This document shows positions 13,463 to 59,976 of a stretch of DNA of 64,000 nucleotides, in pieces. The DNA is taken from IMG/VR virus record IMGVR_UViG_3300030329_001630, positions 7,592 through 71,591 of that record, one strand, 5' to 3'. Every line of letters starts with the position of its first letter. Positions within the stretch are counted from its first letter, which is position 1. Made by a program: the position numbers and the translations under genes. Below the pieces are notes generated by a model. The model saw only the letters and a program-made list of their open reading frames with translations. It searched no databases and had not been told where the DNA came from. Origin of the DNA: a virus.

Positions 13463-14177
13463 CTGCATCAAAAATCTCCGAAGGGTCGATATTTTCTTCT
13501 AACAAGATCTGTTTAATTTCCTTAAATACAGCGTCCATATCGGGATCCCTGTTTTCTCTTCTTGACTTACATAACTCACAAGTACACGGAACTTCTTCAA
13601 GCCAATCTTCGTAGGCAAATACTAAATTCTCTTCTAGTTCTTCGAGGCTTCGGTTGTTCCAGAACAAATGACAAAACGGAGTCAAAGCGTTAGGTCGATG
13701 CTTAATAGTTTTTTCAATAAGGTTTGCAAGTGCTTCGGACTCATGTTTTCTCCAAGCTCCATCCTCATCAAAAAGAGTTCGGTCTCCTGCCGCAACAAAT
13801 ATTGTCTTGCCTCCTCTATGTTTAATTGCCTCTGTTTCATTAACGTATCTGCAATCGTCAATGAGAATAACCGTTTCTGATTCTCGTTCTCCAGACGTTT
13901 CTTTAAGCAAGTGTTTTTCATATTGCTCTGTCCACCTCTCTACCCAGTAGTCTTGATTTTGTTCACGCATCTTTGCGCCCCAATTTTGGCAGTATTTTCT
14001 ATACCCTTCCGGATCTTCAGCTTTACCGTATCCAGCCTTATCGGCTTCTTCTTTAAGGGCAGCGGCAAATGGCAAATAGACGGGCGTGTAACCATCTTCA
14101 TACAGATGACGCATCAGTTCCCTTACTATCGTTGTCTTTCCTGTACCGGCCCTCCCAGAGAACGAAATTATTTTCAT
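13440..14177 (-). CDS. Deoxynucleoside monophosphate kinase-like P-loop kinase
   Basis: SGRAGTGKTT Walker A, FAAALKE, R...QNWG..MR...DYWV, IDDCRY.NE and HESE motifs. Confidence 0.82.
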   Translation of the reverse strand: MKIISFSGRAGTGKTTIVRELMRHLYEDGYTPVYLPFAAALKEEADKAGYGKAEDPEGYRKYCQNWGAKMREQNQDYWVERWTEQYEKHLLKETSGERESETVILIDDCRYVNETEAIKHRGGKTIFVAAGDRTLFDEDGAWRKHESEALANLIEKTIKHRPNALTPFCHLFWNNRSLEELEENLVFAYEDWLEEVPCTCELCKSRRENRDPDMDAVFKEIKQILLEENIDPSEIFDADADDSDP

Positions 14178-14640
14178 ATAGCCATCTCCTAATTTTGTTT
14201 AAACTATCTCCACCGTAAGATGGGATCGGGATTCCGTTTTTATTTAACACATCACACACTAGATCAGCGCAAGTCTTTGGTCTTTTTACGCCTAAATAAT
14301 TAAGCCACTTGAAATGTTTTACAACACCCCACTTAGCTAAGACAAAGAAACTATAGTTACCATCGTATCTAGGAAGATCTTGCTCTACTTTTTCTAGAGA
14401 AGATTCTACATCTCCTAAGTACATAAACAAATCAAATTTTTTTATTTTATGCACTGCTTTATTTGTAGTAAGGTAAGGATATTTCTTATTAACACCAAAC
14501 CAATAATGACACGGCCCGACTGATATACCTGCGTGCGTATGCGTCATTCGTGGGGCTAAGACTTTAAATGCAATTCTAGCCCACAAAGGTTCTTTCTTTG
14601 AAGTCTTGTAAAAGAAAACCACTAATGGGTATCTGCCCAT
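14098..14640 (-). CDS. Permuted papain-like (NlpC/P60, YiiX/YaeF-type) amidase or peptidase
   Basis: His-before-Cys order: HTHAGI ... Y ... KTCADLVCDVL..GI. Confidence 0.55.
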   Translation of the reverse strand: MGRYPLVVFFYKTSKKEPLWARIAFKVLAPRMTHTHAGISVGPCHYWFGVNKKYPYLTTNKAVHKIKKFDLFMYLGDVESSLEKVEQDLPRYDGNYSFFVLAKWGVVKHFKWLNYLGVKRPKTCADLVCDVLNKNGIPIPSYGGDSLNKIRRWLYENNFVLWEGRYRKDNDSKGTDASSV

Positions 14641-16334
14641 GATTCTCCAATCACATACTCTGCGTCCACCGGCATTCTAATACCAAGTTTTCTTCCTGCT
14701 TCTTGGGCGCAGCGTACCAGTTCCTTGCCAGTTTCTTCGGCAATCTCTGGAGGACAAGACGTTTGGATCTCGTCATGGATCCAACCCATCATCTTTACCC
14801 CCTTGGGGGAAAGGGACCGATGGGCCAAAACGATCCAGAGTTTAGAAACAACTGCGCCATTTCCCTGTAGTAGAGTGTTAAGAGCTGCGTGATCACTCCG
14901 TACAGGAACACGGCGACCATCCAAGAGAACAACACTACCATACTTAGCCGATTGGAATTGGACATTCTGAATTACTTTCTTAAGTGCAGGCAATCGCCTT
15001 AGGAATTTATCTTTAAGTTGTTGACCATCACGGGCATTACCGCCAACGATCTGACCAATCTTTTCTGATCCGGCACCATAAAGGAAACCGTAAATAAATG
15101 TCTTTGCTTGATCTCTGTTGGTCAAGCCTGCTGCTTCCATGTTGGTAGTATGAATATCACCTTCAAGGATTTCCTTGGCATAAGCACCGCCGTCAAACTC
15201 GGCCATCTGATGAGCCAACATACGTAGCTCAAGGCCACTTAGGTCAGAGCCAACTTGGACATGACCGTCGTGAGGCTTCCAAAGCCTGCGTGACTTAGGG
15301 TTCTTATCTACTTGTGCAATGTTTGGTTGTGAGTGCGTAGCGCGACCAGTTGCAGCACCTTGGTGATTGAACTGCCCATGAATCGTACCAGTACCAGACA
15401 CACAAGCCCGCAACATCCAATCGTCCACCATACCTAGCAGCTTCTGGGCATCACGGTACTCAAGGATAGAACGGGCTTCAGGAAACTTCAATGATTTCAA
15501 TACCTTTGTATCACAGTTGGGATTCCCCTTCTCACTGACAGGGGCTTTCCAACTGTACTTCACTTTAAACCGCTCGGCAATCTGCTTGGTACTAGCAGGA
15601 TTAAAGATAGTAACCTTATCTTTCAATCGCTTACCAGTCTTTTCTGACCAACGTTCTTCAACAATCGCAGGAAACGTAGCCTGAAGATTATCTTCGATGT
15701 CAGCTTTAACTCCTTGTAGTTCTCTCTGTAGTTCACTTGCTCCATTGCAATCAAACTTAAACCCATTCTTTGTCATATCGGCACACACGTGTCCGACAAG
15801 ATGCTCGAATTGAACTACTTTTTTATTGTCTTGTACCCAAGATTTTTGATAGTCGTAAATCTTTTCGTTTACAATTACATCTTGAATACAGTACTCCATC
15901 ATTTCATCAGAGTATTCTTCCCATCCGCCATCGTAGTCTTGTTTGTCTTCTCCGAGTTTCCTGCCCCATGCCTCCAAGGAGTGGCTATGTCGCCCTTTCT
16001 TGTCGTGTAGAGGGAACTTGACATCCTGTTTATCAGGATACATCAATCTAGAAACAATGAGAGTATCAAGTACAGGGCAGCTACGAACAAGACCACATCG
16101 AGCAAGAACGGGGATGTCGTACCCGATAAGATTATGACCGATCCAAAGAGAAGCCCGATTAAGAAACGCAATACCTGATTGGATTTCGTCGGGATTGAAC
16201 GTGTAGACTCTATCTGAGCCTGCTTCTTTTGCCACGATGCACCAAACATGCTCGGCTCGTTGAATGGGTTCCCCTCGTTTATTGATTGACGGATACGCGA
16301 GGCCGTTTGCCTCGATGTCCCAGATGATTTCCAT
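14622..16334 (-). CDS. DNA polymerase, family A (T7 gp5-like)
   Basis: Exo I motif WDIEANGL, GHNLIGYDIP, TGRATHSQPNIAQV, DLSGLELRMLAH, RDQAKTFIYGFLYGAG (Tyr at the 762-equivalent position) and WIHDEIQ. Confidence 0.96.
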   Translation of the reverse strand: MEIIWDIEANGLAYPSINKRGEPIQRAEHVWCIVAKEAGSDRVYTFNPDEIQSGIAFLNRASLWIGHNLIGYDIPVLARCGLVRSCPVLDTLIVSRLMYPDKQDVKFPLHDKKGRHSHSLEAWGRKLGEDKQDYDGGWEEYSDEMMEYCIQDVIVNEKIYDYQKSWVQDNKKVVQFEHLVGHVCADMTKNGFKFDCNGASELQRELQGVKADIEDNLQATFPAIVEERWSEKTGKRLKDKVTIFNPASTKQIAERFKVKYSWKAPVSEKGNPNCDTKVLKSLKFPEARSILEYRDAQKLLGMVDDWMLRACVSGTGTIHGQFNHQGAATGRATHSQPNIAQVDKNPKSRRLWKPHDGHVQVGSDLSGLELRMLAHQMAEFDGGAYAKEILEGDIHTTNMEAAGLTNRDQAKTFIYGFLYGAGSEKIGQIVGGNARDGQQLKDKFLRRLPALKKVIQNVQFQSAKYGSVVLLDGRRVPVRSDHAALNTLLQGNGAVVSKLWIVLAHRSLSPKGVKMMGWIHDEIQTSCPPEIAEETGKELVRCAQEAGRKLGIRMPVDAEYVIGESWADTH

Positions 16335-18636: not shown

Positions 18637-19164
18637 TTAATCGAATGGGATTTCATCAGTGATGACAGTAGGAGCATCAGGCTGTTCGCCGTCAGTCTCA
18701 CTCACATCACTGGCCGACACTGCGCTACCAGTTCCGAACGGGTTACTAGTTTCTCGCTGTTCTGATTCGTTCACACTCTTGAGGAGTACAGCGTTAAACT
18801 TCATTGAGAGGTAGGTCTTACCCATGACCTCAACGGGGTAGCAAACAGAATTAATGTTAACCGTATCACCAGACCAACAGAACCCCTTGGGTCGCGCTTC
18901 AACATTGTCAGCAGTATACATCTTGGGTGCATACTTTGACTTGAAGGTAATAACCTTGGAGCCATCCTTGACGGTCTTGACAAAAGGCTGGTCAACCTTC
19001 CACTCGTCAGCAAGCTTCTGGAGCTTGGCTTCGAGCTCCTCGTCATGCATCACGGTGATCTTATACTCACCTTCAGCATTGAACTTGGTGTCAGGGACGG
19101 CGACATGAGAATACTTTACAGTCAGGTCACCAGTCTTAATGGTAGCAGTAGGTCGATCAGTCAT
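18637..19164 (-). CDS. Single-stranded DNA-binding protein (T7 gp2.5-like)
   Basis: PDTKFNAEGEYKI, FKSKYAP, an acidic tail ending DEIPFD, and an AGGAG RBS before MTDRP at 19164. Confidence 0.82.
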   Translation of the reverse strand: MTDRPTATIKTGDLTVKYSHVAVPDTKFNAEGEYKITVMHDEELEAKLQKLADEWKVDQPFVKTVKDGSKVITFKSKYAPKMYTADNVEARPKGFCWSGDTVNINSVCYPVEVMGKTYLSMKFNAVLLKSVNESEQRETSNPFGTGSAVSASDVSETDGEQPDAPTVITDEIPFD

Positions 19165-19360
19165 TAGTTTCGTTCTCCTTGTTAGCGTTAGCAATGACTT
19201 CTGCGAGAGACTTAATCTGATTATTGAGGTTACTACTAAGCATAGTAATTCCCCCATAGAGTTCTTCCAGATAGGTAAGAACTACCTGTGCCTGTACACC
19301 AATCGGCTGCTCAGGCATCTCTTCTTGAATGGTTTCTTCAACAACGGTTTCTTCACTCAT
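19157..19360 (-). CDS. Hypothetical acidic/coiled-coil protein
   Basis: ORF MSEETVVEE... with an AAGGA RBS. Confidence 0.55.
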   Translation of the reverse strand: MSEETVVEETIQEEMPEQPIGVQAQVVLTYLEELYGGITMLSSNLNNQIKSLAEVIANANKENETND

Positions 19361-19407
19361 AGTTATCCTTTCCGGCACAGTAAGTGCCTATTGTAATAGC
19401 ATGGGTT

Positions 19408-20067
19408 TTATGGCATCAGTTCGAGATACGGATGTCCATTCACAACTACTCCACATGCGTGAATTGGTTTAACAAGATAGTGCTCAGAATAGAGCATAGC
19501 AAGATGATCATTGTCCACCCCGCACCCAACAGACATACCAAAGATGCGGTGATTGTTAGCACCAGACATCCAATTAATAGCTGCTTTTGTATGATGATGC
19601 CCCATGACCACTGACTGGTTACGTGTTCGAGCCGCATTAAATGCCGGATAAGCAGAAGCAGCACCAGTCCCATGATAATAATAAACACCATCGATTTCAA
19701 CATTCTGTTTCCACTCCCAGTTCTTTGTTTTATATAGTTCTTTATATTCCTTCAGGTACATAGCAGGAATACCGGCATCGGCTGCAATCCTATGGACACG
19801 ACAGTCATGATTACCAATAGTGACGGTAGCGTTTGGGTACGCCTTGTACCAACGCTTAACTGTATCAAAGGCAAGTTCGTATTCCCTGATCGCGTCGGGC
19901 GATTCAGGGTTTGCTTTATGATACGAAATGACATGGTGATCGATAACGTCACCAATGAATACTGTTTGGTCAGTCCTATATTTCCTTCGTATACTTCTGA
20001 CGAAATCAAAGTAGTCGTCTTTAACAGCAGGGGCGTGTAAGTCCCCGATTACTAATACTCTACTCAT
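19408..20067 (-). CDS. Calcineurin-like metallophosphoesterase
   Basis: IGDLH, GDVID, GNHD, HG and GHHH motifs. Confidence 0.88.
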   Translation of the reverse strand: MSRVLVIGDLHAPAVKDDYFDFVRSIRRKYRTDQTVFIGDVIDHHVISYHKANPESPDAIREYELAFDTVKRWYKAYPNATVTIGNHDCRVHRIAADAGIPAMYLKEYKELYKTKNWEWKQNVEIDGVYYYHGTGAASAYPAFNAARTRNQSVVMGHHHTKAAINWMSGANNHRIFGMSVGCGVDNDHLAMLYSEHYLVKPIHACGVVVNGHPYLELMP

Positions 20068-20638
20068 TGATTTTACTCCTAATGTCTCTGCACTTACGGG
20101 AAACCATAGACTCACTTATGTCCATCATTACACCAATGGTTTTCATTGTGGTTCCCTGAGCAATTTGGTTGACAATAAACCGTTCGTGTTTTGTAATACT
20201 CGGTTTATTGACGATTTGTTCTCTGAAAGTTTCTTTTGAATCCAAAGGGTTATTGCATTCACTTGCACCGTTGCATTCATTAGAATGGGGGATATCACTT
20301 TCTGCGAACTGTTGCATTTTGTGGATATAACGGCCTTCTTCCTTACCTTCCCAGTTTCTGTGCATACCTTCCTCAAATGACCTCATGCCATCTGAGATTC
20401 TTCCCCCAAGGTAAAGGAAACAGTACTTAGTAAACGGAACACCTTTGCTTTCGTCCCACGACTTTAGCAAATTTTGAATCTGAATCCATCCCTCACTGAG
20501 CAATGCTTCTTTAGACCATCGATTGAAGTAATTGCTTTTGAGCTTCTGACCGACAATAATCTGAATCAACTCAACAAGATCATTTTCGTTAGCGATGTCA
20601 ATTGGGTTCTTTTCGTAATCTCTGAATTTATTCCGCAT
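20060..20638 (-). CDS. Sigma-70 family sigma factor (FliA/WhiG-like regions 2 and 4)
   Basis: EALLSEG...WDESKGVPFTKYCFLYLGGRISDGMR matches region 2.2-2.4. TMKTIGVMMDISESMVSRK matches the region 4.2 HTH. Probable start MRNKF at 20638. Confidence 0.75.
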   Translation of the reverse strand: MRNKFRDYEKNPIDIANENDLVELIQIIVGQKLKSNYFNRWSKEALLSEGWIQIQNLLKSWDESKGVPFTKYCFLYLGGRISDGMRSFEEGMHRNWEGKEEGRYIHKMQQFAESDIPHSNECNGASECNNPLDSKETFREQIVNKPSITKHERFIVNQIAQGTTMKTIGVMMDISESMVSRKCRDIRSKINE

Positions 20639-20903
20639 TAAAGTAATCCTCTTCTGTAAAGTTATCGTCAGGACCATCTACTACAAATTCAATGTTTACA
20701 AGATCTTCTGGAAGATCGTCTTCTTTAGACAGGTGTTTATCACCAATAGTCTGTACGTTATCAAGAATAATGTTTACCCAAGAAATATGAGGTAACATAA
20801 TCTGATACGTAGCGTTTTCTCCTTCTAGGATATTAAACTCGATTGTATCAAGAAGCTCCTCCATTGTGTGCTCCGAATTGATCGTTGTTGTGTGTTTGAA
20901 CAT
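20628..20903 (-). CDS. Hypothetical acidic protein
   Basis: Start MFKHT with AGGAGG RBS. Confidence 0.55.
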   Translation of the reverse strand: MFKHTTTINSEHTMEELLDTIEFNILEGENATYQIMLPHISWVNIILDNVQTIGDKHLSKEDDLPEDLVNIEFVVDGPDDNFTEEDYFNAE

Positions 20904-21147
20904 CAGAATCCTCCTTGAGGTAATGAATTTCTTGTACCATTTCAATAGGGATGAGATGCACAGCACCTCCTGCTTGCCCATCATGTTGGATCGTATCCGT
21001 CAAAACAATCCGGTCTTCTGTGAAATTAATGACGTAACCAATAGTGTTTACAATACAAATTTCAGCAGAAGCTGCTTCTTTAATATCTTCGGCATCTTCC
21101 CATCCGGGTCCGCCGGTTGACTGCGCGTCCTTCCATTTGACTCTCAT
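20848..21147 (-). CDS. Conserved hypothetical phage protein (VxWxDA...TIGY...IP pattern)
   Basis: MRVKWKDAQS...W...IVNTIGYVI...IVLTDT...IPIEMVQEI, a common small beta-barrel phage protein pattern. Confidence 0.6.
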   Translation of the reverse strand: MRVKWKDAQSTGGPGWEDAEDIKEAASAEICIVNTIGYVINFTEDRIVLTDTIQHDGQAGGAVHLIPIEMVQEIHYLKEDSDVQTHNNDQFGAHNGGAS

Positions 21148-21181
21148 GATTCTACCTTCGTTAAGGATAGATTTCAACCAC

Positions 21182-23746
21182 TCAGCAGAAGAGATATTCA
21201 GATTCGAGAATTTCTTCTGGAACGAGGCCACCTTGTTCTGGAATGTCTGGGAGTTCGTGACCGGAAAAGTTTTCGAGATCTTGTTTAAATAATTCGAGTT
21301 GGCTTTCTTTGTGAATTTCATAAAATGTTTCCCTTGATATACGTGTTAGATACTTTAGGTAAATAATAGGTACTCCGAAGCTATCGTGGATCATGCAAAA
21401 GTTTCTGCACCCCATTGCCAGCAAACGCAATACCACAAATACCATATGAGCAGCGTCAATTGAGTGGACCCAGTTAGGAGGGATAGCCGTAGCCATTTTC
21501 CTAACGTCCATGTCCTCAGTAAACTGCCACATTTCTGCCGTAGATCTAATACGTACATCATTCTTTAGCAGTAAAGCAATATCAGTGATATACTCTACAT
21601 GTTCAGTGTAATACTGCCTGACTTTAAATCCAGAAGGAGTTGTCCATTGAAGAGGCTTTTTCTTTCTGTCATCACTATTATAACAAACTTCAACACATGC
21701 TTTAATATACTCTTTAGCTTCGTTAGGAAGAATTAAGGCTTCTTGGAGTGCTTCCCAAATTACAGACGTACATTCCATGATGGCCCCTTGCCAGCTTAGG
21801 CCACGCCCTTCGAGCAATGGTCTACACCAGTCAAGATGTCCCTCAGATCGGATGTACTGTCTTGCACTGTAGAATGTGACTCCGTAAGGATCACACATTA
21901 CAGTCCTTTTAGGTAACCCTCTTGGCATCTTCTTGTCTTTTTCTGTGTGCTCCCAATGGGTTAAAAACATATCAAAGTATTGATTAGCATCACGTTCTGC
22001 TTCCATTTTTGCAGTAGCGTTATGAGCAATAAACTTATACATATCACCCGGTTTAGAGGTTTTACTAACATTAACAAGTTCAGCTAAGTTTTCAGCTTTA
22101 GTTGTACCTACCCAATGTTGAATACCATTGCATGTCCCGTCAAGATTCTTAGGGACATACGAGTATCCTGTTTCTAAAGCAATAAAGAAATCAATAGTAT
22201 CAGCCAGTCGCCTGAATGATATATTCTTTTTAGCTTTATCATCTTTCCAAAGATTTACAGTACCTTCAGGGTCTTCGTATACTTGACGAAGCATACTCAT
22301 ATTGTCATCGACCCATTGAGCACGTTCTTCAAAAGACGCTTTATCAAAGTCCCACCTGTTAGCTAAGTGAACCTTTAACCAGAAGTAGTCACATTCTTCT
22401 TTAACTTCATTTGATTCTAACTTAACTCCTTCAGCGAATTGAATTATACCGCAGTCGAAGTCCCCACTTTGAGGAGATAGAAACGATGACTGCGTATAGC
22501 ATCTCCCCCTAAAGTCAGAAGAATAAGCGTGCCAAAATATCAAGTCTTTAAGATCATCCGCAATAAGTAAACGCATTTCCATTTGCATTCTCTTTTGCTT
22601 AGTCTTTTCCCATAGACCCCATGCTTCAGCACGTTCGTTTTTCCATTTAGCTATTACTTCTTTTTCTTCTCCTTCAGGGAAAGGTCTACTGAATACAAAC
22701 TCATCGTGGTCGTAAGGAGGCAGGTTACACACCTGTCGATTAGACTTGTACAGATTAGTCATTACCTCAAGAACTCTTTTGTTGATGCTCCATTCAGTAC
22801 CTTGCAATGCATTAAGGGCATTGATTGACTGTTGGCTATGCTCACTATTGTTCTTGTAGTAATTGCCTGCTCTTGTGTTATGAACAGATGACTTCCTGTA
22901 TTCTAAGTGTAAAGCACCACCCCAGTCCTCCGCTGTCTTGTTAGGATAGTCGTGAGGAATAGGTGGGCACACCATTGGATAATACAACCACTTATAATAT
23001 TGGTAAAAATTATGAAATGCCTCGAAGTTTTTCGTAAACTCTTCTCGCAGTGAGATAATAGTATGTCTTTTAATCTGTCCGTTTTTTACAATAGCGATAG
23101 GGTTTTCAACAAAGGGCATAATACTTTCTTTGTTTCCTACCATTAAGGTATAGAACGATAAGGCAACCACATTTCTCTTTTGGTTATCCCATGTAGGTAA
23201 CGTTTGACACTTACGTGCAAACGCTTTCATTCTTTTCTTGTTCCAATTCTTAAAGTAATGCGACTGTCGGGCAAACTCATTGCTGTAGTTTTCTTTAGCC
23301 AGTCGTATGCCGATAGCCAGCCACAGTTCTCTTGATATAACACCTAGTATATTCTGTTTAGTTTGTGATCTTAAGTCTCCTAAGTTATAGTTATCGTACT
23401 TAATACCGTCCGATGCTTGGATCAGACGAGACGATAAGCAGCTATCAAGCAATGCCTTGACAACAATAGCAGCACATCGTTCAGCACCCAACAAGTGAGC
23501 AATAGTAAGCCAGTAAGGCTTCTTTTTTACTTTTTCATATTGTTCTTCTGTCCAATTAATGTAATCGCTAAGGTATTCTGTGTAATCAAACACGAATTCC
23601 TTCTCGCGTGGAGATGCACTAGGGGACATGTTAACATTGTTGAGGTACTTTTCAATGGATTGTTTAGCTGCTTTGTCTTCGTTGGCTAACTGAAGATTTG
23701 TTAGCCTTCTTCTTTCTTCTTTTGTGTACGTTTCCCATATTGTCAT
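21182..23746 (-). CDS. T7-type single-subunit DNA-dependent RNA polymerase
   Basis: YPMVCPP, DFRGRCY, LDGTCNGIQHW (motif A), KRTVMCDPYG (motif B), PNWVHSIDAAH and MIHDSF (motif C). AAGGAG RBS before MTIWE at 23746. Confidence 0.96.
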   Translation of the reverse strand: MTIWETYTKEERRRLTNLQLANEDKAAKQSIEKYLNNVNMSPSASPREKEFVFDYTEYLSDYINWTEEQYEKVKKKPYWLTIAHLLGAERCAAIVVKALLDSCLSSRLIQASDGIKYDNYNLGDLRSQTKQNILGVISRELWLAIGIRLAKENYSNEFARQSHYFKNWNKKRMKAFARKCQTLPTWDNQKRNVVALSFYTLMVGNKESIMPFVENPIAIVKNGQIKRHTIISLREEFTKNFEAFHNFYQYYKWLYYPMVCPPIPHDYPNKTAEDWGGALHLEYRKSSVHNTRAGNYYKNNSEHSQQSINALNALQGTEWSINKRVLEVMTNLYKSNRQVCNLPPYDHDEFVFSRPFPEGEEKEVIAKWKNERAEAWGLWEKTKQKRMQMEMRLLIADDLKDLIFWHAYSSDFRGRCYTQSSFLSPQSGDFDCGIIQFAEGVKLESNEVKEECDYFWLKVHLANRWDFDKASFEERAQWVDDNMSMLRQVYEDPEGTVNLWKDDKAKKNISFRRLADTIDFFIALETGYSYVPKNLDGTCNGIQHWVGTTKAENLAELVNVSKTSKPGDMYKFIAHNATAKMEAERDANQYFDMFLTHWEHTEKDKKMPRGLPKRTVMCDPYGVTFYSARQYIRSEGHLDWCRPLLEGRGLSWQGAIMECTSVIWEALQEALILPNEAKEYIKACVEVCYNSDDRKKKPLQWTTPSGFKVRQYYTEHVEYITDIALLLKNDVRIRSTAEMWQFTEDMDVRKMATAIPPNWVHSIDAAHMVFVVLRLLAMGCRNFCMIHDSFGVPIIYLKYLTRISRETFYEIHKESQLELFKQDLENFSGHELPDIPEQGGLVPEEILESEYLFC

Positions 23747-23858
23747 TGGACTCCTTATCACTCATAATGTTAAGTTTCTTCTTTCCAAAAATTTTCTCAT
23801 ATTCTTTATCATACTTTTTTCTATCTACATCTCTGTATCTATCGCCTTTACCGCTCAT
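23664..23858 (-). CDS. Small basic hypothetical protein (GKGD.YR...Y.KIFG type)
   Basis: Start MSGKGDRYRDVDRKKYDKEYEKIFGKK with AAGGAG RBS. The longer ORF in the track runs into the tRNA. Confidence 0.55.
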   Translation of the reverse strand: MSGKGDRYRDVDRKKYDKEYEKIFGKKKLNIMSDKESNDNMGNVHKRRKKKANKSSVSQRRQSS

Positions 23859-23875
23859 AAGGTACTCCTTTCTAA

Positions 23876-23960
23876 TAGCTCCGGGGGGACTCGAACCCCC
23901 ATGAGGTTTACCCTCGACGGATTTTAAGTCCGTTGCGTCTGCCAATTCCGCCACAGAGCC
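23876..23960 (-). tRNA. tRNA-Leu (anticodon UAA)
   Basis: GGCTCTG-TGGCGGAATTGGCAGACGC-AACGGA-CTTAAAA-TCCGT, long variable arm, GGGGGTTCGAGTCCCCC-CGGAGCT-A. No encoded CCA. Confidence 0.93.
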
Positions 23961-23964
23961 ATCA

Positions 23965-24038
23965 CACTTCGGGAAGGACTCGAACCTTCGACCTGCGGAT
24001 TAGAAGTCCGCTGCTCTATCCGACTGAGCTACCGAAGC
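23965..24038 (-). tRNA. tRNA-Arg (anticodon UCU)
   Basis: GCTTCGG-TAGCTCAGTCGGATAGAGCA-GCGGA-CTTCTAA-TCCGC-AGGTC-GAAGGTTCGAGTCCTTC-CCGAAGT-G. Confidence 0.93.
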
Positions 24039-24559
24039 CCTTTCTTCTTAGAGATTTTCCACAATTCAGTCCAAGCAGGAAGCCTAGCATTTACTAAATG
24101 GAACGCTGCTTCTTCAATAGGTACGCCAGATTCAATACAGCAAGCTACAGTATAATAAGAAGCATTAGGGTACAACATTAAGCCTTCATTATGTAAAAAT
24201 TTAGTAACTCTCTTTTCTGTTTCTTTTGTTGCACTACCTTCTAAGATACAATCAACAGCGAAGAATACAGAATCTGGTTCTCCTTTAACGAAAGAAGATC
24301 CCCAGCCCGGAATCTTGTAATGATTTAACAGATGGGTTTTGATTTCATTCTCGTAGTTTAATTCAGAGCACCTCGAAATAAATTTATGTGTTTGCATAAG
24401 AGGGGCATGAATTTCTCCAAGTGTAAGAAGCCCTCCTGCAATGGAGGTAAAGTAATCTTTTCCGACTTCCGCAAGCGCTGCTACCGAAGCCGCCGAAGCG
24501 TTATTCCTTAATGCAATTTCATTTTGAAATGAATACATTTCTTCTAATAAGGTGTGCAT
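24029..24559 (-). CDS. Truncated citrate-synthase-like (citryl-CoA lyase fold) protein, catalytic residues partly substituted
   Basis: NNASA, DYFTSIAGGLLTLGEIHAP, KIPGWGSSFVKGEPD, LYPNASYY and ARLPAW align in order with citrate synthase motifs NAST, G.LHGGA, GFGHRVY..DPR, PNVDFY and R..GW. Confidence 0.65.
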   Translation of the reverse strand: MHTLLEEMYSFQNEIALRNNASAASVAALAEVGKDYFTSIAGGLLTLGEIHAPLMQTHKFISRCSELNYENEIKTHLLNHYKIPGWGSSFVKGEPDSVFFAVDCILEGSATKETEKRVTKFLHNEGLMLYPNASYYTVACCIESGVPIEEAAFHLVNARLPAWTELWKISKKKGLR

Positions 24560-24578
24560 AATTTCTCCTTTCTGAGAA

Positions 24579-24650
24579 TACCCTCGGCAGGACTCGAACC
24601 TGCGACCGATCGGTTAAAAGCCGAATGCTCTACCACTGAGCTACGAGGGC
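24579..24650 (-). tRNA. tRNA-Lys (anticodon UUU)
   Basis: GCCCTCG-TAGCTCAGTGGTAGAGCA-TTCGG-CTTTTAA-CCGAT-CGGTC-GCAGGTTCGAGTCCTGC-CGAGGGT-A. Confidence 0.93.
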
Positions 24651-24757
24651 AGGTGCCCCTTGAGTGTTCAAGGGGCGGGGGGACATGGTGTAAGTTTTGA
24701 GGAAACTAGGCATCCCCCCTTTCATTATAAGAGGTTATGCACACCATGCCATAAAAC

Positions 24758-27345: not shown

Positions 27346-27539
27346 GTAACTTCTCCAGTAATATCCTCTCGTTCATCTGTATCCTGATTAATCAAGGTAA
27401 CCCGAACGTGATCCTCCTCACCGGGATAGGTCAACTCAATCTCTTGTCGAATGACATCGAGATTGTTATCTCGGTTATCGCTGTGCATGTCAACGGTGTG
27501 ACCTATAGAACCACGGTACATAATTTCTGCGATATACAT
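27330..27539 (-). CDS. Hypothetical early protein
   Basis: ORF with AAGGAG RBS. Confidence 0.6.
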   Translation of the reverse strand: MYIAEIMYRGSIGHTVDMHSDNRDNNLDVIRQEIELTYPGEEDHVRVTLINQDTDEREDITGEVTCSQK

Positions 27540-27548
27540 ACTCGCTCC

Positions 27549-27806
27549 TTATTCAAGAATATTAATAATACGAGCAACAATGCTCTGTGCTTTTTTTGCT
27601 GTTTCCAAAGTGCTTCTATTCAGTTCTTCGTTCTCGTACTGCATGTGCATCTGACCTGCGATTTGATCGAGGTCGATGAACAAGTAACGAAGATCATTTT
27701 CGCTACCTTCGTAGTCACTAAGGTGCTCCTTCTTGACGCTGCAAGACTTAGCCTTAGCGAAGTGGTTGTTAATGTCATTGAAGATGTTGTTCAAAGGGTC
27801 AGTCAT
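27549..27806 (-). CDS. Hypothetical early protein
   Basis: 85-aa ORF in a packed operon. Confidence 0.55.
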   Translation of the reverse strand: MTDPLNNIFNDINNHFAKAKSCSVKKEHLSDYEGSENDLRYLFIDLDQIAGQMHMQYENEELNRSTLETAKKAQSIVARIINILE

Positions 27807-27979
27807 TACTTAGTTCTTTCTGATTCAAAAATGTGCTTGTTGTCTTCTGATTCGAGGTGTGCCATGAACCGCTCGGCATCCTCACGATTATCGAAACCAT
27901 CTTCAATAGTATTGGTGGAATCAACTACAACGTTGAACCACTTGCCGGTCTGAACAATCTTGTAAATCATTTGCACTCC

Positions 27980-28360
27980 TTAGTGCTTGGTTAGATAGGA
28001 CTTAAGAACTTCCCAATACTTATCTTCACCCATCTTATCAGGGTTATCAGTCATATAAGTCTTGGGCTTGATGTACTTACCTTTCATCTGATTTTTCCAT
28101 TGCTGTGCAATAGAAGGGAACACATTCAGCATCCCTTTATCGGTAGACTTTCCTTTCTTGTCAGTGACAGCCCTCCAGTCCACATAAGGATCGTGGACAT
28201 TCAGCAGCCCTTGCATGTGCAACTGCTGTGCTTCATTCAGGTTGTCTTGGTTACGCCTACGGTCAACGATGAGATACACCTGCTCGTTAGCAACCAGCGT
28301 AGTAGCAGCGGGTTGGGTTCCGAACACGCAGAATCCATCACGGTCATACAGTTTACTCAT
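27980..28360 (-). CDS. Hypothetical early protein
   Basis: 126-aa ORF with AAGGA RBS. Confidence 0.6.
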   Translation of the reverse strand: MSKLYDRDGFCVFGTQPAATTLVANEQVYLIVDRRRNQDNLNEAQQLHMQGLLNVHDPYVDWRAVTDKKGKSTDKGMLNVFPSIAQQWKNQMKGKYIKPKTYMTDNPDKMGEDKYWEVLKSYLTKH

Positions 28361-28586
28361 AGCTTTTCCTTATGTAGCTATACCAATAACGTGGGTTTTT
28401 TGGACGCTACATATCTATCGGATTAGTTTTTGCTACTCTTGAGCAATCTATAGCATAATAAAACTACTAGTATCAATACAAGTAGAGCAGCCCCTGTATC
28501 AACAGGTTGGTCATAAGGCCCGGAGACCCCCTCTGAGCCGCTTGGCCCAGAGGGGACTCGGGATACCTCGAAAGCCTTGCAACCCA

Positions 28587-28859
28587 TTAGGCGGTCGCAC
28601 CGTTGGCGATAGCCCATGCCTTCTGCTCACGCTTGCGCTGATCCATCAGGCGGTTGAATCCATCAGGCCCGGAGTACTTCCAAGTCTTGCAAGTGGACTT
28701 GCCGTGCTTGGCCTCGTAATTCTTCTTGATTCGGATCACCTCATCCATGAGGCCGCCCTGAGTATCTGCGAAGATCTTGACCTTCCAACTCTTGTTGCCT
28801 TCACCGTTGGTGAGGTAGAAAGTGACGGTGGCGAAGTACTTCTTGTTGTCGTTACGCAT
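28587..28859 (-). CDS. Hypothetical basic early protein
   Basis: 90-aa ORF downstream of a terminator hairpin. Confidence 0.55.
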   Translation of the reverse strand: MRNDNKKYFATVTFYLTNGEGNKSWKVKIFADTQGGLMDEVIRIKKNYEAKHGKSTCKTWKYSGPDGFNRLMDQRKREQKAWAIANGATA

Positions 28860-28889
28860 GGTATAAAACTTTCTGCCAATGTGGCATAG

Positions 28890-28926
28890 AAAAAAAAGAG
28901 GGGACGGCCAACATGACCGCCCCCTT
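28890..28926 (-). terminator. Rho-independent terminator in the early region
   Basis: AAGGGGGCGGTCA-TGT-TGGCCGTCCCCTC followed by T8. Confidence 0.75.
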
Positions 28927-28946
28927 GGAATTACATTTCAAACAAT

Positions 28947-29372
28947 TCAAGAACCGGGTACAGCCTGAAGCATTCCAAGCGTCCAGTCAATTTTGCTCTT
29001 AGCTCGACCTGTTGTACGCTTGATTACGGGACAACCCTGTCTGCACCAGAGGCATACCTCATGGATTTCTGCATCTCTCTTGACAGACGCAAAATCACGA
29101 CGCGGAGAGCACGCAGAGAAATCACCCAAGTGAGTGACGTACCAAACGACATCCTCCGAACCGTAGGAACCCGATTTTTCGTCGTAGTCTTTTTGGTCAA
29201 TGTCCCTTTCGATGAAGTACCATTCTTGGCCGTGAAGGCCACTCTGAAAGAAGTACTTTTCGCGTCCATCCAACCCAGCCCTAATGCTGAAAAGGATTTC
29301 ATTTTTGTAAAGCCATTCGTATTCCAACTTATGCATGTGCATATTCCTTGTAAGAGTCAAAGATAGGGTCAT
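28947..29372 (-). CDS. Hypothetical early protein
   Basis: ORF track. The true start is probably MHMHKL near 29342 (AAGGA RBS). Confidence 0.55.
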   Translation of the reverse strand: MTLSLTLTRNMHMHKLEYEWLYKNEILFSIRAGLDGREKYFFQSGLHGQEWYFIERDIDQKDYDEKSGSYGSEDVVWYVTHLGDFSACSPRRDFASVKRDAEIHEVCLWCRQGCPVIKRTTGRAKSKIDWTLGMLQAVPGS

Positions 29373-29583
29373 CCCTGAACTTCAGGTTAGTTCCCCAAAA
29401 GCGGTACACCGTTATAGAGTACCTAGTAAGATTCCGAAGAAAGTCTTTTTCTTTACTAAGTTTATCACACAGTTCCTTAGCGTGTCTAAGTGCGTCCTCC
29501 TTTTTGTCGAAGTGCCACCTTGCGATAAAAGTAGCACACTCTGAAGTATGGTCATGTACGTAGATACGAAACTCTTCAGTCAT
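29329..29583 (-). CDS. Hypothetical early protein
   Basis: ATGA-coupled ORF with GAGGA RBS. Confidence 0.55.
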   Translation of the reverse strand: MTEEFRIYVHDHTSECATFIARWHFDKKEDALRHAKELCDKLSKEKDFLRNLTRYSITVYRFWGTNLKFRDDPIFDSYKEYAHA

Positions 29584-29843
29584 TCGTCATCCTCAGGTTC
29601 ATGGTTTTTTACAAATGTTTCTACAGTTTCTTTAGTCAAGCCGGGGATACTAGACCTAAAGTAATTCTGCGCGACGGCAATAATATCACAATGAAAGCTA
29701 TCGTAAAGTTCTGTCAGCAGGTCATCGAGATCCTCGATACCCTCAAGCTTATCACCGTAGTCTTCACGAAGAAGATCAGTAAGAGCATCTTCAAGTTCTT
29801 GTTCGAGACAAATATTCATCGGTTCAGTTTCCTTACCGTTCAA
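29580..29843 (-). CDS. Hypothetical acidic early protein
   Basis: Very Asp/Glu-rich helical ORF. Confidence 0.55.
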   Translation of the reverse strand: MNGKETEPMNICLEQELEDALTDLLREDYGDKLEGIEDLDDLLTELYDSFHCDIIAVAQNYFRSSIPGLTKETVETFVKNHEPEDDE

Positions 29844-30067
29844 AGATATGGAGCAATACGCTCAAAAGATTTAAGATCCACTACGTCGTGGTCTCTCCAC
29901 AAGTCATCCAGATTCAAGGTGATCAAACTACAAGTGATCTTTGCTTCGGGCCGCCGACGCTGCTCTTGAGCAAGCCACTTGTGTTTTTGTTTGTTGATCT
30001 CACGAATTCTCTTCTTGATTTCTTCCCCGTCTCTTACTTCAATATTTTTCCTAGAACTAGCCATCAA
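29840..30067 (-). CDS. Hypothetical early protein
   Basis: ORF overlapping its neighbours. Confidence 0.5.
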   Translation of the reverse strand: MMASSRKNIEVRDGEEIKKRIREINKQKHKWLAQEQRRRPEAKITCSLITLNLDDLWRDHDVVDLKSFERIAPYL

Positions 30068-30407: not shown

Positions 30408-30421
30408 TGGTCAAGTTCCTT

Positions 30422-30796: not shown

Positions 30797-30858
30797 CGAT
30801 CAAGTCTCCTTTCTAAAGTGAAAGGGCAGTTTATACTGATGCCCAGCAGTAGAATCAA

Positions 30859-31278: not shown

Positions 31279-31308
31279 GTTGTTTCCTTTCGAGAAACAG
31301 GGTTGGGT

Positions 31309-32872: not shown

Positions 32873-32878
32873 CATGAC

Positions 32879-33773: not shown

Positions 33774-33789
33774 GGTGTGATCCTTTCAG

Positions 33790-59565: not shown

Positions 59566-59976
59566 CTATCTCCTAGAACTGACAGCGGACTGCCCAAAAT
59601 AAAAACCAATAATAGCAATAAGGGCTGTGCGTAATTCAGTAACAAGAAGAAATCCTTTGACTTCATGGAATTGCTCTGTAAATAATCCAAAGATACCGCC
59701 AAACTCTCCTTCTACCCATGTAGGGATTCCAAAGAATGAGAGAATGAAAGGGGCACCAACCATTGCAAATAAAACACTGATAACAATGAATCGCCGTACC
59801 CACGTACCACCCGCACCGCCCCGTGCCTCCGCACGGTCAGCAGAGTCATCGGCAGCAGCTTGGGTTTTAATAGCCAACTCAGCAAGAGCCGACTGTCGTT
59901 CTACCATAGAGCCAATTAATTTGAAGATAAAACCGGAGACACCTCCGCCGATAAGGGACAGCAATTCAACTGGCAT
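59566..59976 (-). CDS. Putative holin (3-TM type)
   Basis: N-terminal hydrophobic helix, WVRRFIV TM segment, and C-terminal AIIGFYFG. Confidence 0.65.
   Translation of the reverse strand: MPVELLSLIGGGVSGFIFKLIGSMVERQSALAELAIKTQAAADDSADRAEARGGAGGTWVRRFIVISVLFAMVGAPFILSFFGIPTWVEGEFGGIFGLFTEQFHEVKGFLLVTELRTALIAIIGFYFGQSAVSSRR

What the first reader, a model, noticed from the sequence alone, without database searches (positions are those of the whole stretch)
20060..20638. Phage-encoded FliA/WhiG-like sigma factor next to a T7 RNAP: possible three-tier transcription system
The protein has sigma region 2 (WDESKGVPFTKYC...GRISDGMR, compare FDP.RG.KF.TYA..RIRGAI.D.LR) and a region 4.2 HTH (TMKTIGVMMDISESMVSR, compare TMKEIG..L.lSESRVSQ). 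T7-like phages normally bypass or inhibit host RNAP and do not supply a sigma factor. With the embedded RNAP domain, the genome may use injected RNAP, then T7 RNAP, then reprogrammed host RNAP. Alternatively the sigma may hijack a host FliA-type (motility or cell-cycle) regulon or act as a core-RNAP sink.
Basis: partly seen in the sequence, partly recalled or inferred. Interest (0 to 1): 0.8.

Follow-up and report, generated by a model that had tools for sequence, protein, structure and literature searches.

The report
Phage sigma factor beside T7-type polymerase
An uncultured marine T7-like phage carries, just after its own RNA polymerase gene, a small and unusually fast-changing sigma-factor gene, which suggests that it reprograms the host's RNA polymerase as well as bringing its own.

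Summary
Window 20060-20638 (-) encodes a 192-aa sigma-70-family protein with a sigma-2 and a sigma-4 domain, a short disordered linker and no sigma-3. Single-sequence Pfam hits are all below threshold. The family profile, however, retrieves mostly true sigma factors: 116 of 145 carry Sigma70_r2 and 115 of 145 carry Sigma70_r4. Profile-profile comparison with FliA/WhiG gives 99.5% for the whole protein and 97.2% for the N-terminal half alone. An AlphaFold model gives sigma-2 and sigma-4 as the best structural matches for its two domains.

The gene sits in a conserved block: single-subunit RNAP, two small ORFs, sigma, phosphoesterase, SSB. This block is present in all 10 related marine phage loci examined, down to 70% RNAP identity.

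Sigma is the fastest-evolving gene of the block. This window's allele is 51-57% identical where the flanks are 76-98% identical. Synonymous sites are saturated, so the allele was probably swapped in.

The most likely function is a phage sigma that redirects host core RNAP. That is inferred: no promoters, RNA data or host were found. The 'three-tier' scheme and hijack of the FliA regulon are not supported. This is a new variant of a known kind, of moderate to high interest.

The parts
20060..20638 (-). Sigma-factor gene, 192 aa (stop codon 20060-20062)
   Evidence: ORF. Start set by 7 homologues. RBS and overlapping start and stop. Sigma-70-family assignment.
20360..20596 (-). Sigma-2 domain (residues about 15-93): three helices, regions 2.1-2.4
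   Evidence: hhalign of the N-terminal profile against FliA/WhiG: 97.2%, E 3.1e-11. AF2 helices 18-34, 43-60 and 69-89, pLDDT 87-95. VIA matches: 3ugo Z 8.6, 1sig Z 8.6, pro-sigmaK Z 8.4.
20240..20359 (-). Linker (residues about 94-133) in place of sigma-3; low confidence and variable
   Evidence: Residues 109-137 have pLDDT below 50. About 50 FliA region-3 columns have no counterpart. This is the most divergent part at nucleotide level (identity 0.37-0.60).
20063..20239 (-). Sigma-4 domain (residues about 134-192) with the region 4.2 helix-turn-helix and a conserved C-terminal Asn-Glu
   Evidence: A1 profile against WhiG 7lq4, stretch 135-185. AF2 helices 134-143, 150-160, 165-172 and 176-191. 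VIA matches: 3mzy Z 8.6, SigD4 Z 8.2, sigmaF Z 8.1. N191 and E192 are nearly invariant in 16 sequences.
20084..20620 (-). Divergent island: nucleotide identity to the sister phage falls to 0.37-0.77 here, against 0.8-0.9 on both sides
   Evidence: 30-nt and 150-nt identity profiles of the window against L005. Sigma pS is 0.862 (saturated) against 0.13-0.53 in eight flanking genes.
21182..23761 (-). T7-type single-subunit RNA polymerase, 859 aa, first gene of the conserved block
   Evidence: PF00940, 216.9 bits. PHROG 414, E 2.1e-141. Only about 25% identical to RNAPs of cultured phages.
20848..21147 (-). Small ORF 'orf157' (probably 99 aa from an internal Met), function unknown, between RNAP and sigma
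   Evidence: ORF. The Atlas holds it from residue 59. Conserved in position in 10 loci, 49-92% identical.
20628..20903 (-). Small acidic-tailed ORF 'orf118' (probably 91 aa), function unknown; its stop overlaps the sigma start
   Evidence: ORF. The Atlas holds it from residue 28. Conserved in position, 40-84% identical. The AF2 model is of low confidence (pLDDT 58.6).
19408..20067 (-). Metallophosphoesterase gene; its ATG overlaps the sigma stop
   Evidence: Pfam Metallophos, E 8.2e-10. PHROG 221, E 9.6e-49. Start read directly from the sequence.

Best explanation
The gene encodes a minimal phage sigma factor of 192 aa. It has FliA/WhiG-like sigma-2 and sigma-4 domains joined by a short flexible linker, the two-domain layout otherwise typical of ECF sigmas.

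It is translated from the early-to-middle operon that starts with the phage's own single-subunit RNAP gene. I infer the mechanism as follows. Sigma-2 docks on the beta-prime clamp helices of the host core RNAP and sigma-4 docks on the beta flap. The resulting holoenzyme is directed to a class of phage promoters that has not yet been identified. The phage would then run two polymerases side by side: its own T7-type enzyme and a re-specified host enzyme.

The gene is an old, fixed part of this marine phage lineage, yet it is the fastest-evolving gene of its block. In this genome it has been replaced by a deeply divergent allele with a changed DNA-recognition helix. I read that as a change of promoter specificity, of host adaptation, or of both.

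Shown here: family, fold, domain layout, synteny, purifying selection, the allele swap. Inferred: core binding, promoter-directed transcription, timing.
For: Family and fold:
- NCBIfam TIGR02479, E 1.7e-6, and TIGR02937, E 7.1e-5.
- 116 of 145 profile hits carry Sigma70_r2 and 115 of 145 carry Sigma70_r4.
- hhalign against FliA/WhiG: 99.5% and 97.2%.
- The two AF2 domains best match sigma-2 and sigma-4 (Z 8.6 each).
- All 48 rows listed by Foldseek against PDB are sigma or RNAP-sigma entries, but none reaches E<=1e-3 (best 2.8e-3).
- BFVD gives 4 hits at E<=1e-3; the two that carry names are phage sigma factors.

Kept by selection:
- dN/dS is 0.16 in the one pair that is not saturated (L003 against L005).
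- R80, D83, G91 and G162 are invariant across 16 sequences that are 24-55% identical to the window.
- The block RNAP, two small ORFs, sigma, phosphoesterase, SSB is present in 10 of 10 related loci, including one with only 70% RNAP identity and 28% sigma identity.

Operon context: overlapping start and stop codons with both neighbours.

Core binding: ESMFold2 complex of residues 1-105 with E. coli beta-prime 220-350 scored 0.47 (runs 0.44, 0.47, 0.52), best of 3 controls 0.01, verdict 'weak support'. The runs agree in at least 67% of contacts and the partner's pLDDT is at least 70. The mark was reached by 116 of 157 solved complexes and 2 of 215 mismatched pairs, but at 0.60 or under by only 18 of those 157 and by both mismatches that passed. 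Sigma-2/beta-prime complexes are solved, so the pass may only reflect likeness. E. coli is a stand-in host.

Precedent: phages phiEco32 and 7-11 encode their own sigma for host RNAP (abstract of PMC12276001; listing of PMC8948821).
Against: - No sigma-dependent promoter was found. There is no repeated motif. Sigma-70-like sites are at chance, 33 against 29.8 +/- 5.9. FliA-consensus sites are not enriched.
- Single-sequence Pfam matches to Sigma70_r2 and Sigma70_r4 fall below the gathering scores. N-terminal-only profiles against PDB sequences put SUMO-1 first (E 0.011 and 0.05) and sigma factors only at E 0.14-1.6.
- The host is unknown.
- Very fast protein evolution would also fit a role with fewer constraints than promoter recognition. 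Sigma dN is 0.38 against 0.007-0.094 in the flanks.
- The T7-type RNAP alone could in principle transcribe all the genes.
- The in-silico binding support is weak and may come from the model's memory of solved complexes.
Confidence: 0.55

Rival explanations
1. Core-RNAP sink or host shut-off factor. The protein keeps the sigma fold only to occupy host core RNAP and displace host sigmas. That would silence host transcription while the phage's own RNAP does the work. Specific promoter recognition would be unimportant.
For: No cognate promoters were found. It is the fastest-evolving gene of its block, and the linker and sigma-4 diverge most. It sits just before the SSB gene, where T7 (recalled, not tested) carries gene 2, an inhibitor of host RNAP. 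The weak in-silico support for beta-prime contact (0.47 against a best control of 0.01, with the caveats given there) fits this reading as well.
Against: The helix-turn-helix of region 4.2 is retained in all 16 family members. Its substitutions concentrate at the positions aligned with the FliA recognition helix. That pattern looks like changing specificity, not decay. dN/dS of 0.16 shows constraint over the whole length. Known phage inhibitors of RNAP are, as far as I recall, not sigma homologues.
Confidence: 0.17
2. Hijack of the host FliA (sigma-28) regulon. The protein stands in for host FliA and switches on or titrates motility or cell-cycle genes.
For: The nearest named relatives are FliA/WhiG. 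Most alleles in sister phages carry a recognition-helix string like that of the FliA alignment consensus.
Against: There is no sigma-3. The score against the FliA/WhiG model is 28 bits against a cut-off of 189.6. The stretch aligned to FliA region 2.4 is different and specific to this family. This window's allele changes two positions of the recognition helix. FliA-consensus sites are not enriched in either genome. No relative was found in one genome from each of 185,579 bacterial and archaeal species, so there is no sign of recent capture from a host; that scan depends on short patterns.
Confidence: 0.05
3. Specificity factor for a phage polymerase. The sigma-like protein would work with the phage's single-subunit RNAP, or with a possible virion polymerase, and not with host RNAP.
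For: It is tightly and persistently linked to the RNAP gene in 10 of 10 loci. No T7-style repeated promoter was found that the RNAP could use unaided.
Against: The RNAP is 95.7% identical between this phage and its sister while sigma is 54.7% identical. That is not what obligate partners would show. The sigma-2 and sigma-4 folds are built to dock on multisubunit RNAP (plus general knowledge). No single-subunit RNAP is known to me that uses a sigma-70 homologue (recalled).
Confidence: 0.04
4. Not a sigma at all, but a LuxR/GerE-type helix-turn-helix regulator with an unrelated N-terminal domain.
For: The best single-sequence Pfam hit is GerE, E 3.7e-4. NarL ranks second in the profile search against PDB. 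The N-terminal profile puts SUMO-1 first in PDB sequence searches.
Against: N-terminal-only hhalign to FliA region 2 gives 97.2%, E 3.1e-11. TIGR02479 matches residues 37-102 alone at E 1.7e-6. The N-domain model is all-helical at pLDDT 87-95 and matches sigma-2 at Z 8.1-8.6, which does not fit a ubiquitin-like fold. 116 of 145 profile hits carry Sigma70_r2.
Confidence: 0.03

Closest known systems
FliA/WhiG (sigma-28, group 3) sigma factors, NCBIfam TIGR02479
   Same: They are the closest named relatives by sequence. The alignment covers regions 2.1-2.4 and 4.1-4.2 (hhalign 99.5%). 17 of 18 sampled hits and 101 of 145 profile hits belong to the FliA/WhiG family.
   Different: There is no sigma-3 domain. 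The protein is 192 aa, against about 240-260. It scores far below the family cut-off (28 against 189.6 bits). The region 2.4 stretch is specific to this family, and this allele has an altered recognition helix. It is phage-borne, and no bacterial relative was found.
ECF (group 4) sigma factors
   Same: The architecture is the same: two domains (sigma-2 plus sigma-4), a short linker, and about 170-200 aa. ECF sigmas H, L, E, W and K appear among the structural matches at Z 7.1-8.1.
   Different: By sequence it is closer to FliA/WhiG than to ECF. Only 16 of 145 profile hits carry Pfam Sigma70_ECF. TIGR02937 scores 22.5 bits against a cut-off of 42.9. No anti-sigma partner was identified.
phiEco32 gp36 (and the phage 7-11 sigma): podophage-encoded sigma that redirects E. 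coli RNAP, helped by gp79
   Same: Both are small phage sigmas in lytic podophages that, on my reading, re-specify host core RNAP. The gp36-containing complex 9m7y_F matches the model at Z 6.8. The mechanism is taken from the abstract of PMC12276001.
   Different: As I recall, the phiEco32-type phages have no polymerase of their own, whereas this phage has a T7-type RNAP. I ran no direct sequence comparison with gp36; tblastn of this sigma against 50,697 phage records found nothing. A gp79-like partner is unknown here; the two small neighbouring ORFs are untested candidates.
T4 gp55 late sigma
   Same: It is a phage-encoded, highly reduced sigma that acts on host core RNAP. The complex 7d7d_F matches the N-domain at Z 6.7.
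   Different: As I recall, gp55 has only a sigma-2-like part and depends on gp33 and the sliding clamp. The protein here keeps a full sigma-4 helix-turn-helix.
Phage N4 transcription programme (virion RNAP, then RNAPII, then host RNAP)
   Same: It would be the model for a phage that uses several polymerases in sequence (abstract start of PMC4496689 in the listing). Genome size is similar (71.6 kb) and there is a giant ORF.
   Different: Here the structural and replication genes are T7-like. The RNAP is a single 859-aa chain. A virion RNAP domain is not established. As I recall, N4 uses host sigma-70 with its SSB, not a sigma of its own.

Membership tests
Sigma-70 family (any group) | Sigma-2 domain (regions 2.1-2.4) | tested here: met
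   hhalign with the N-terminal profile only: 97.2%, E 3.1e-11. TIGR02479 on residues 37-102: E 1.7e-6. VIA matches 3ugo and 1sig, Z 8.6. Caveat: single-sequence Pfam Sigma70_r2 scores 12.1 bits, below the cut-off of 24.
Sigma-70 family (any group) | Sigma-4 domain with the region 4.2 helix-turn-helix | tested here: met
   A1 profile against WhiG 7lq4 region 4. hhalign 99.5% through region 4.2. VIA matches 3mzy Z 8.6, SigD4 Z 8.2, sigmaF Z 8.1. Single-sequence Pfam Sigma70_r4 scores 14.4 bits, below the cut-off of 24.1.
Sigma-70 family (any group) | Binds core RNAP (beta-prime clamp helices, beta flap) | tested here: inconclusive
   ESMFold2 with E. coli beta-prime 220-350: score 0.47, best of 3 controls 0.01, verdict 'weak support'. 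The mark was reached by 116 of 157 solved complexes and 2 of 215 mismatches, but at 0.60 or under by only 18 of those 157 and by both mismatches that passed. The runs agree in at least 67% of contacts and the partner's pLDDT is at least 70. The pass may reflect memory of solved complexes, and E. coli is a stand-in host.
Sigma-70 family (any group) | Confers promoter-specific initiation | not testable with these tools
   No cognate promoter motif was found. In vitro transcription or TSS mapping is needed.
FliA/WhiG (TIGR02479) | Score above the curated family cut-off | tested here: not met
   28 bits against a cut-off of 189.6.
FliA/WhiG (TIGR02479) | Sigma-3 domain between sigma-2 and sigma-4 | tested here: not met
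   About 50 FliA region-3 columns have no counterpart. Residues 109-137 of the model are disordered, with no helical domain.
FliA/WhiG (TIGR02479) | Recognises the sigma-28 promoter consensus (consensus recalled) | tested here: inconclusive
   Consensus-like sites are not enriched on the coding strand of G000 or G001 (5 and 5 against 3.3 and 5.25 in shuffles). This only shows that the phage does not visibly use such promoters.
ECF sigma (group 4; TIGR02937, Pfam Sigma70_ECF) | Two-domain sigma-2 plus sigma-4 architecture without sigma-1.1 or sigma-3 | tested here: met
   AF2 model and hhalign.
ECF sigma (group 4; TIGR02937, Pfam Sigma70_ECF) | Score above the curated cut-off | tested here: not met
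   TIGR02937 scores 22.5 bits against a cut-off of 42.9. There is no Sigma70_ECF hit for the query.
ECF sigma (group 4; TIGR02937, Pfam Sigma70_ECF) | Cognate anti-sigma encoded next to it | not tested
   The two small upstream ORFs have no family. The orf118 model is too poor to search with.
N4-like three-polymerase programme | Virion-packaged giant protein containing a single-subunit RNAP domain | tested here: inconclusive
   The window's 4735-aa ORF has no Pfam, PHROG or PDB-sequence hit and no BLASTP similarity to the phage's own RNAP. The sister's orthologue hits PF00940 below threshold (17.9 and 15.9 bits, cut-off 22). Motif-A- and motif-B-like strings are conserved in both.

The most novel reading that the evidence does not exclude
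A deep-branching marine lineage of T7-like phages runs a multi-polymerase programme on a T7 chassis. The programme would combine its own single-subunit RNAP, a host RNAP re-specified by a phage sigma, and possibly a polymerase domain buried in the 4735-aa virion protein. The sigma gene behaves as an exchangeable specificity cassette. Whole alleles with different recognition helices are swapped by recombination between genomes that are otherwise about 90% identical. This would force, or follow, matching changes in a set of phage promoters or a change of host.
Probability: 0.15. Interest if true: 0.8.

Novelty: new variant of a known kind. Interest (0 to 1): 0.6.

Why it matters
T7-type phages are the textbook case of a virus that frees itself from the host's transcription machinery by bringing its own polymerase and switching the host's off. 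A sigma factor fixed next to that polymerase gene across a whole marine lineage would mean that these phages keep using the host enzyme and re-aim it. That blurs the line between the T7 strategy and the phiEco32/T4 strategy.

The gene is minimal (192 aa). It is related to FliA but has the ECF layout. It evolves several-fold faster than its neighbours and has been swapped as a cassette. That makes it a natural experiment in how sigma specificity and promoters co-evolve, and a possible source of compact orthogonal sigma factors. If the giant protein's polymerase-like motifs are real, the lineage would also link T7-like and N4-like transcription schemes.

Tried and rejected
Searches and tools that gave nothing:
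- Megablast of 19000-24000 and tblastn of sigma against 50,697 phage records: no match.
- phmmer of sigma against PDB: only E 0.17 to FliA.
- The search for related loci with A3 in viral contigs added nothing new. P0015 and P0010 found no viral locus.
- The genome-contig scan with A4 found no relative. The scan depends on short patterns, so this is not proof of absence.
- Cluster look-ups gave no names.
- The Atlas gave only viral hypothetical proteins for orf157 and nothing for orf118.

SUMO-1 rival:
- SUMO-1 came top in N-terminal-only PDB sequence searches (E 0.011 and 0.05, about 41 residues).
- I rejected it as chance. The E-value worsened with the broader profile. The model of this region is all-helical. 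hhalign and VIA both point to sigma-2.

Promoter hunts:
- The repeat finder found no multi-copy conserved motif.
- k-mer counts in 24 gaps found only the ribosome-binding site.
- The gaps are as conserved as the coding DNA in the sister genome.
- The sigma-70-type scan was at chance, and the FliA-consensus scan showed no enrichment.
- A T7-promoter-like string occurs once only.

Giant protein: no Pfam, PHROG, PDB or BLASTP evidence in the window's copy.

Co-occurrence check: 0 of 5 gut 'Bacteriophage sp.' records that carry a FliA-like ORF have PF00940.

Sequencing runs: no RNA holder was listed among 20 rows from 12 studies, all marine, seawater or viral DNA metagenomes, 8 of which may be the source of this DNA.

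The orf118 AF2 model has mean pLDDT 58.6, too poor for a fold search.

The first dN/dS script gave false values for some genes, because mafft dropped '*' and shifted the frames. It is superseded.

Literature: five searches. Judged from titles and abstract starts only, none describes a T7-like phage that encodes a sigma. I did not open the supplementary tables of PMC9429907, which list sigma-bearing phages and could hold a counter-example.
Full report
WHAT IS THERE

The window is bases 7592-71591 of a 71,591-bp IMG/VR virus record that CheckV rates as complete. Almost all genes lie on the minus strand. PHROG and Pfam annotation gives a T7-like layout:
- three tRNAs (Leu, Arg, Lys)
- an 859-aa single-subunit RNAP (21182-23761)
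- two small ORFs
- the gene in question
- a metallophosphoesterase, an SSB-like protein and RusA
- a T7-type primase-helicase and a DNA polymerase
- a dNMP kinase, an exonuclease and a ribonucleotide reductase
- portal, scaffold, major capsid and tail-tube proteins
- on the other side, large terminase and two giant ORFs of 1628 and 4735 aa

The RNAP and the portal are only about 25% and 35% identical to those of any cultured phage. This is therefore a deep-branching, uncultured member of the T7 supergroup. DNA runs that hold it are marine, seawater or viral metagenomes, and related loci come from TARA and JGI marine samples.

THE OBSERVATION

The ORF 20060-20677 (-) has 205 codons. A purine-rich RBS precedes this ATG. 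The ATG overlaps the stop of the upstream ORF, and the stop overlaps the ATG of the phosphoesterase gene. The gene is therefore embedded in an operon.

Single-sequence Pfam matches are all below the gathering scores: GerE 20.5 bits, Sigma70_r4 14.4 bits, Sigma70_r2 12.1 bits.

Better-powered tests settle it:
- NCBIfam's FliA/WhiG model matches residues 37-102 of the 205-aa ORF at E 1.7e-6. The general sigma-70 model matches 50-204 at E 7.1e-5.
- PHROG 351, 'RNA polymerase sigma factor', matches at E 9.1e-5.
- A profile of eight family members found 264 proteins at E<=1e-3 among 1.84 billion representatives. I scanned 144 of the best 150, leaving out five longer than 600 aa, plus the query. Of these 145, 116 carry Pfam Sigma70_r2, 115 carry Sigma70_r4 and 25 carry Sigma70_r3. 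124 match TIGR02937 and 101 match TIGR02479 at E<=1e-10.
- Of 18 two-stretch hits of 243-283 aa, 17 are FliA/WhiG proteins and one is a NarL-type regulator.
- Profile-profile comparison with those 17 gives 99.5% (E 5.4e-23, 170 columns) for the whole protein. For a profile of the N-terminal 105-110 residues alone it gives 97.2% (E 3.1e-11, 76 columns aligned to regions 2.1-2.4). One caveat: the 17 were themselves retrieved by the family profile, although their FliA/WhiG labels come independently from NCBIfam.

STRUCTURE

An AlphaFold2 model built from 16 sequences has mean pLDDT 76.5. It shows a three-helix N-domain (helices 18-34, 43-60, 69-89; pLDDT 87-95), a disordered stretch (109-137, pLDDT below 50) and a four-helix C-domain (134-191).

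The model was aligned to 48,161 representative PDB chains without Foldseek. The N-domain's best matches are sigma domain 2: Taq sigmaA with -10 DNA (3ugo, Z 8.6, rmsd 2.0 over 67 residues), E. coli sigma-70 (1sig, Z 8.6) and pro-sigmaK (Z 8.4). The C-domain's best matches are sigma domain 4: sigmaH 3mzy (Z 8.6), SigD4 (Z 8.2) and sigmaF (Z 8.1). The tool warns that Z near 8 can be commonplace for helical proteins. Here, though, both domains independently point to the matching halves of one family.

Foldseek against PDB found nothing at E<=1e-3 (best 2.8e-3). All 48 rows it listed are sigma factors or RNAP-sigma complexes. Against BFVD there were 4 hits at E<=1e-3, and the two with names are phage sigma factors.

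A RIVAL SIGNAL

N-terminal-only profiles searched against PDB sequences put SUMO-1 first (E 0.011, and 0.05 with the broader profile), with sigma factors at E 0.14-1.6. I treat this as chance. It covers about 41 residues, it weakens as the profile broadens, and the region is confidently helical in the model.

WHAT KIND OF SIGMA

By sequence it is nearest to FliA/WhiG, but it is not a member of that family. It scores 28 bits against a cut-off of 189.6. About 50 region-3 columns of FliA have no counterpart. The stretch aligned to FliA region 2.4 carries a different motif that is conserved within this family.

By architecture it resembles ECF sigmas: sigma-2 plus sigma-4 with a short linker. It also misses the TIGR02937 cut-off (22.5 against 42.9 bits). 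It has family-specific features: a conserved N-terminal motif, conserved linker segments, and a nearly invariant C-terminal Asn-Glu.

No relative was found in one genome from each of 185,579 prokaryote species (a pattern-limited scan), nor in cultured phages. As far as I could see, the family is confined to marine viromes.

CONSERVATION AND EVOLUTION

All nine close loci (L002-L010), so far as each extends, share the order RNAP, orf157, orf118, sigma, phosphoesterase, SSB, RusA, primase-helicase, DNAP. So does a much more distant locus, L017. Sigma is thus an old, fixed component of the lineage's transcription and replication module and not a stray insert.

Sigma is also the least conserved gene of that module.

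Amino-acid identity to the window:
| Protein | Close loci L002-L010 | Distant locus L017 |
|---|---|---|
| RNAP | 81-96% | 70% |
| Phosphoesterase | 82-91% | 79% |
| SSB | 76-95% | 74% |
| RusA | 94-98% | not covered |
| Primase-helicase | about 95% | not covered |
| DNAP | 90-92% over full-length hits | not covered |
| Sigma | 51-57% over the full length | 28% |

Nei-Gojobori estimates:
| Pair | Sigma | Other genes |
|---|---|---|
| Window vs L005 | dN 0.379 | dN 0.007-0.094 (eight neighbours) |
| L009 vs L005 | dN 0.268 | dN 0.022-0.218 (six other genes) |
| L017 vs L005 | dN 0.80 | dN 0.116-0.600 (five other genes) |
| L003 vs L005 (not saturated) | dN/dS 0.16 | dN/dS 0.01-0.10 for seven genes; 0.22 for orf118 |

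The L003-L005 pair shows real but relaxed purifying selection on sigma.

Between the window and L005, sigma's synonymous sites are saturated (pS 0.862, against 0.13-0.53 in the flanks). The drop in nucleotide identity is confined to 20620-20084, inside the ORF, with 0.8-0.9 on both sides. The simplest reading is that this genome acquired a deeply divergent allele of the same gene by recombination.

The allele changes two positions in the segment that aligns with the FliA recognition helix of region 4.2. In known sigmas, as I recall, these positions face the -35 element.

HOW IT MOST LIKELY WORKS

I infer the mechanism from the fold and from established knowledge of sigma-70 proteins. Sigma-2 binds the beta-prime clamp helices. 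Sigma-4 binds the beta flap. The linker threads the RNA exit channel as it does in ECF sigmas. The holoenzyme then recognises phage promoters.

The only test of binding I could run was an ESMFold2 complex of residues 1-105 with E. coli beta-prime 220-350:
- Score 0.47 (three runs: 0.44, 0.47, 0.52); best of three controls 0.01; verdict 'weak support'.
- The runs agree in at least 67% of contacts, and the partner's pLDDT is at least 70.
- The mark was reached by 116 of 157 solved complexes and 2 of 215 mismatched pairs, but at 0.60 or under by only 18 of those 157 and by both mismatches that passed.
- Sigma-2/beta-prime complexes are solved, so the pass may show likeness only. E. coli is a stand-in host.

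The weak point is that I found no promoters. There is no repeated motif. There is no excess of sigma-70-type sites (33 against 29.8 +/- 5.9) or of FliA-type sites. I also found no T7-style repeated promoter for the phage's own RNAP. The gaps are no better conserved than the coding DNA. No RNA run was listed.

The main rival is therefore a sigma-shaped sink that merely occupies host core RNAP. It would be the functional counterpart of T7 gene 2, which, as I recall, occupies the same place just before the SSB gene. I give it 0.17. What counts against it is that the helix-turn-helix is retained and varies at its recognition positions in all 16 family members, together with dN/dS of 0.16.

I rank three other readings lower: hijack of the FliA regulon (0.05), a cofactor for the phage's own RNAP (0.04; the RNAP is 95.7% identical where sigma is 54.7%) and 'not a sigma' (0.03).

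THE 'THREE-TIER' IDEA

PF00940 hits only the 859-aa RNAP in this genome. The 4735-aa ORF has no Pfam, PHROG or PDB-sequence match. It also shows no BLASTP similarity to the phage's own RNAP.

In the sister genome G001, the orthologous 4728-aa ORF gives a sub-threshold PF00940 hit to profile positions 117-187: 17.9 bits in the genome search and 15.9 bits on a 1092-aa piece, against a cut-off of 22. The two proteins are 28.7% identical over this region. They share strings that resemble polymerase motifs A and B at about residues 1937 and 2040-2052. The window's piece gives no PF00940 hit, and a two-sequence profile finds nothing in PDB. An injected polymerase is therefore possible but not shown.

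WHAT IS KNOWN

Phage sigma factors are common. In one survey, 13.4% of 4,350 reference phage genomes carried at least one (PMC9429907, passages read). The phiEco32 and 7-11 podophages use their own sigma together with an accessory protein on E. coli RNAP (PMC12276001, abstract; PMC8948821, listing).

What seems new is a sigma fixed beside a T7-type RNAP gene across a lineage. Five full-text searches listed no such case (titles and abstract starts only). 0 of 5 gut-phage records with a FliA-like ORF carry PF00940. The supplementary tables of PMC9429907, which I did not open, could hold a counter-example.

VERDICT

The three-tier scheme and the FliA-regulon hijack are not shown. It is a new variant of a known kind. 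The allele-swap and fast-evolution pattern is an unexpected addition. Interest 0.6.

Noticed in passing
window 34693-48900 (-); about residues 1937-2052 = roughly window 42745-43092: The 4735-aa ORF has no family hit. It shares polymerase motif-A- and motif-B-like strings with the 4728-aa orthologue of the sister phage. That orthologue gives a sub-threshold PF00940 hit (17.9 and 15.9 bits, cut-off 22). The two giant proteins are only 28.7% identical over this region, although the replication genes are about 95% identical.
   Followed up: partly
window 14100-14700 (ORF 14098..14640, -): This is a second sharply divergent island between the window and the sister phage (nucleotide identity 0.48-0.69, against about 0.9 in the flanks). 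It covers a 180-aa ORF with no Pfam hit, between the DNA polymerase and dNMP kinase genes.
   Followed up: no
window 20628-21147 (-): The two small ORFs between the RNAP and sigma genes also evolve fast (40-49% identity in L017, where the RNAP is 70%; dN/dS up to 0.5). They have no known family. orf118 has a strongly acidic C-terminus. They are candidates for sigma or RNAP accessory proteins, but this was not tested.
   Followed up: partly
window 23875-24651 (-): A cluster of three tRNA genes (Leu-TAA, Arg-TCT, Lys-TTT) lies directly upstream of the RNAP gene. A sigma-70-like promoter match (10 of 12 positions) sits at 24752-24724 (-) just before it.
   Followed up: no
window 34608-34625 (-): There is a single copy of a string whose core resembles the T7 class III promoter (resemblance recalled), about 15 nt upstream of the 68-aa ORF (34388-34594) that lies immediately downstream of the giant gene. 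No second copy exists within 3 mismatches.
   Followed up: partly
window 59928-59954 (+), inside ORF 59566..59976 (-): A near-consensus sigma-28-type site (12 of 13 positions) lies on the non-coding strand and is conserved in the sister genome. On the coding strand the same bases form a hairpin followed by a T-run, so it is probably a terminator-like element.
   Followed up: no
window 27400-34400: This region has ORFs on both strands, none with a PHROG hit, and a higher G+C content (0.42-0.51, against about 0.40-0.44 elsewhere). It holds two strong terminator-like hairpins at 28925-28899 and 32868-32849 (-). It aligns only in patches with the sister genome.
   Followed up: no
G001 (record behind L005), bases 14-1160 and 71728-72873: The ends of the sister record repeat each other over about 1.1 kb. 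The same stretch of this genome matches both ends. This points to a circularly permuted or terminally redundant assembly.
   Followed up: no
sigma residues 1-17 and 191-192 (window 20588-20638 and 20063-20068): Two motifs are specific to this family and have no counterpart in FliA. One is a conserved N-terminal segment. The other is a nearly invariant C-terminal Asn-Glu, extended by Tyr-Ser-Ile/Val in a distant subgroup. Their function is unknown.
   Followed up: no
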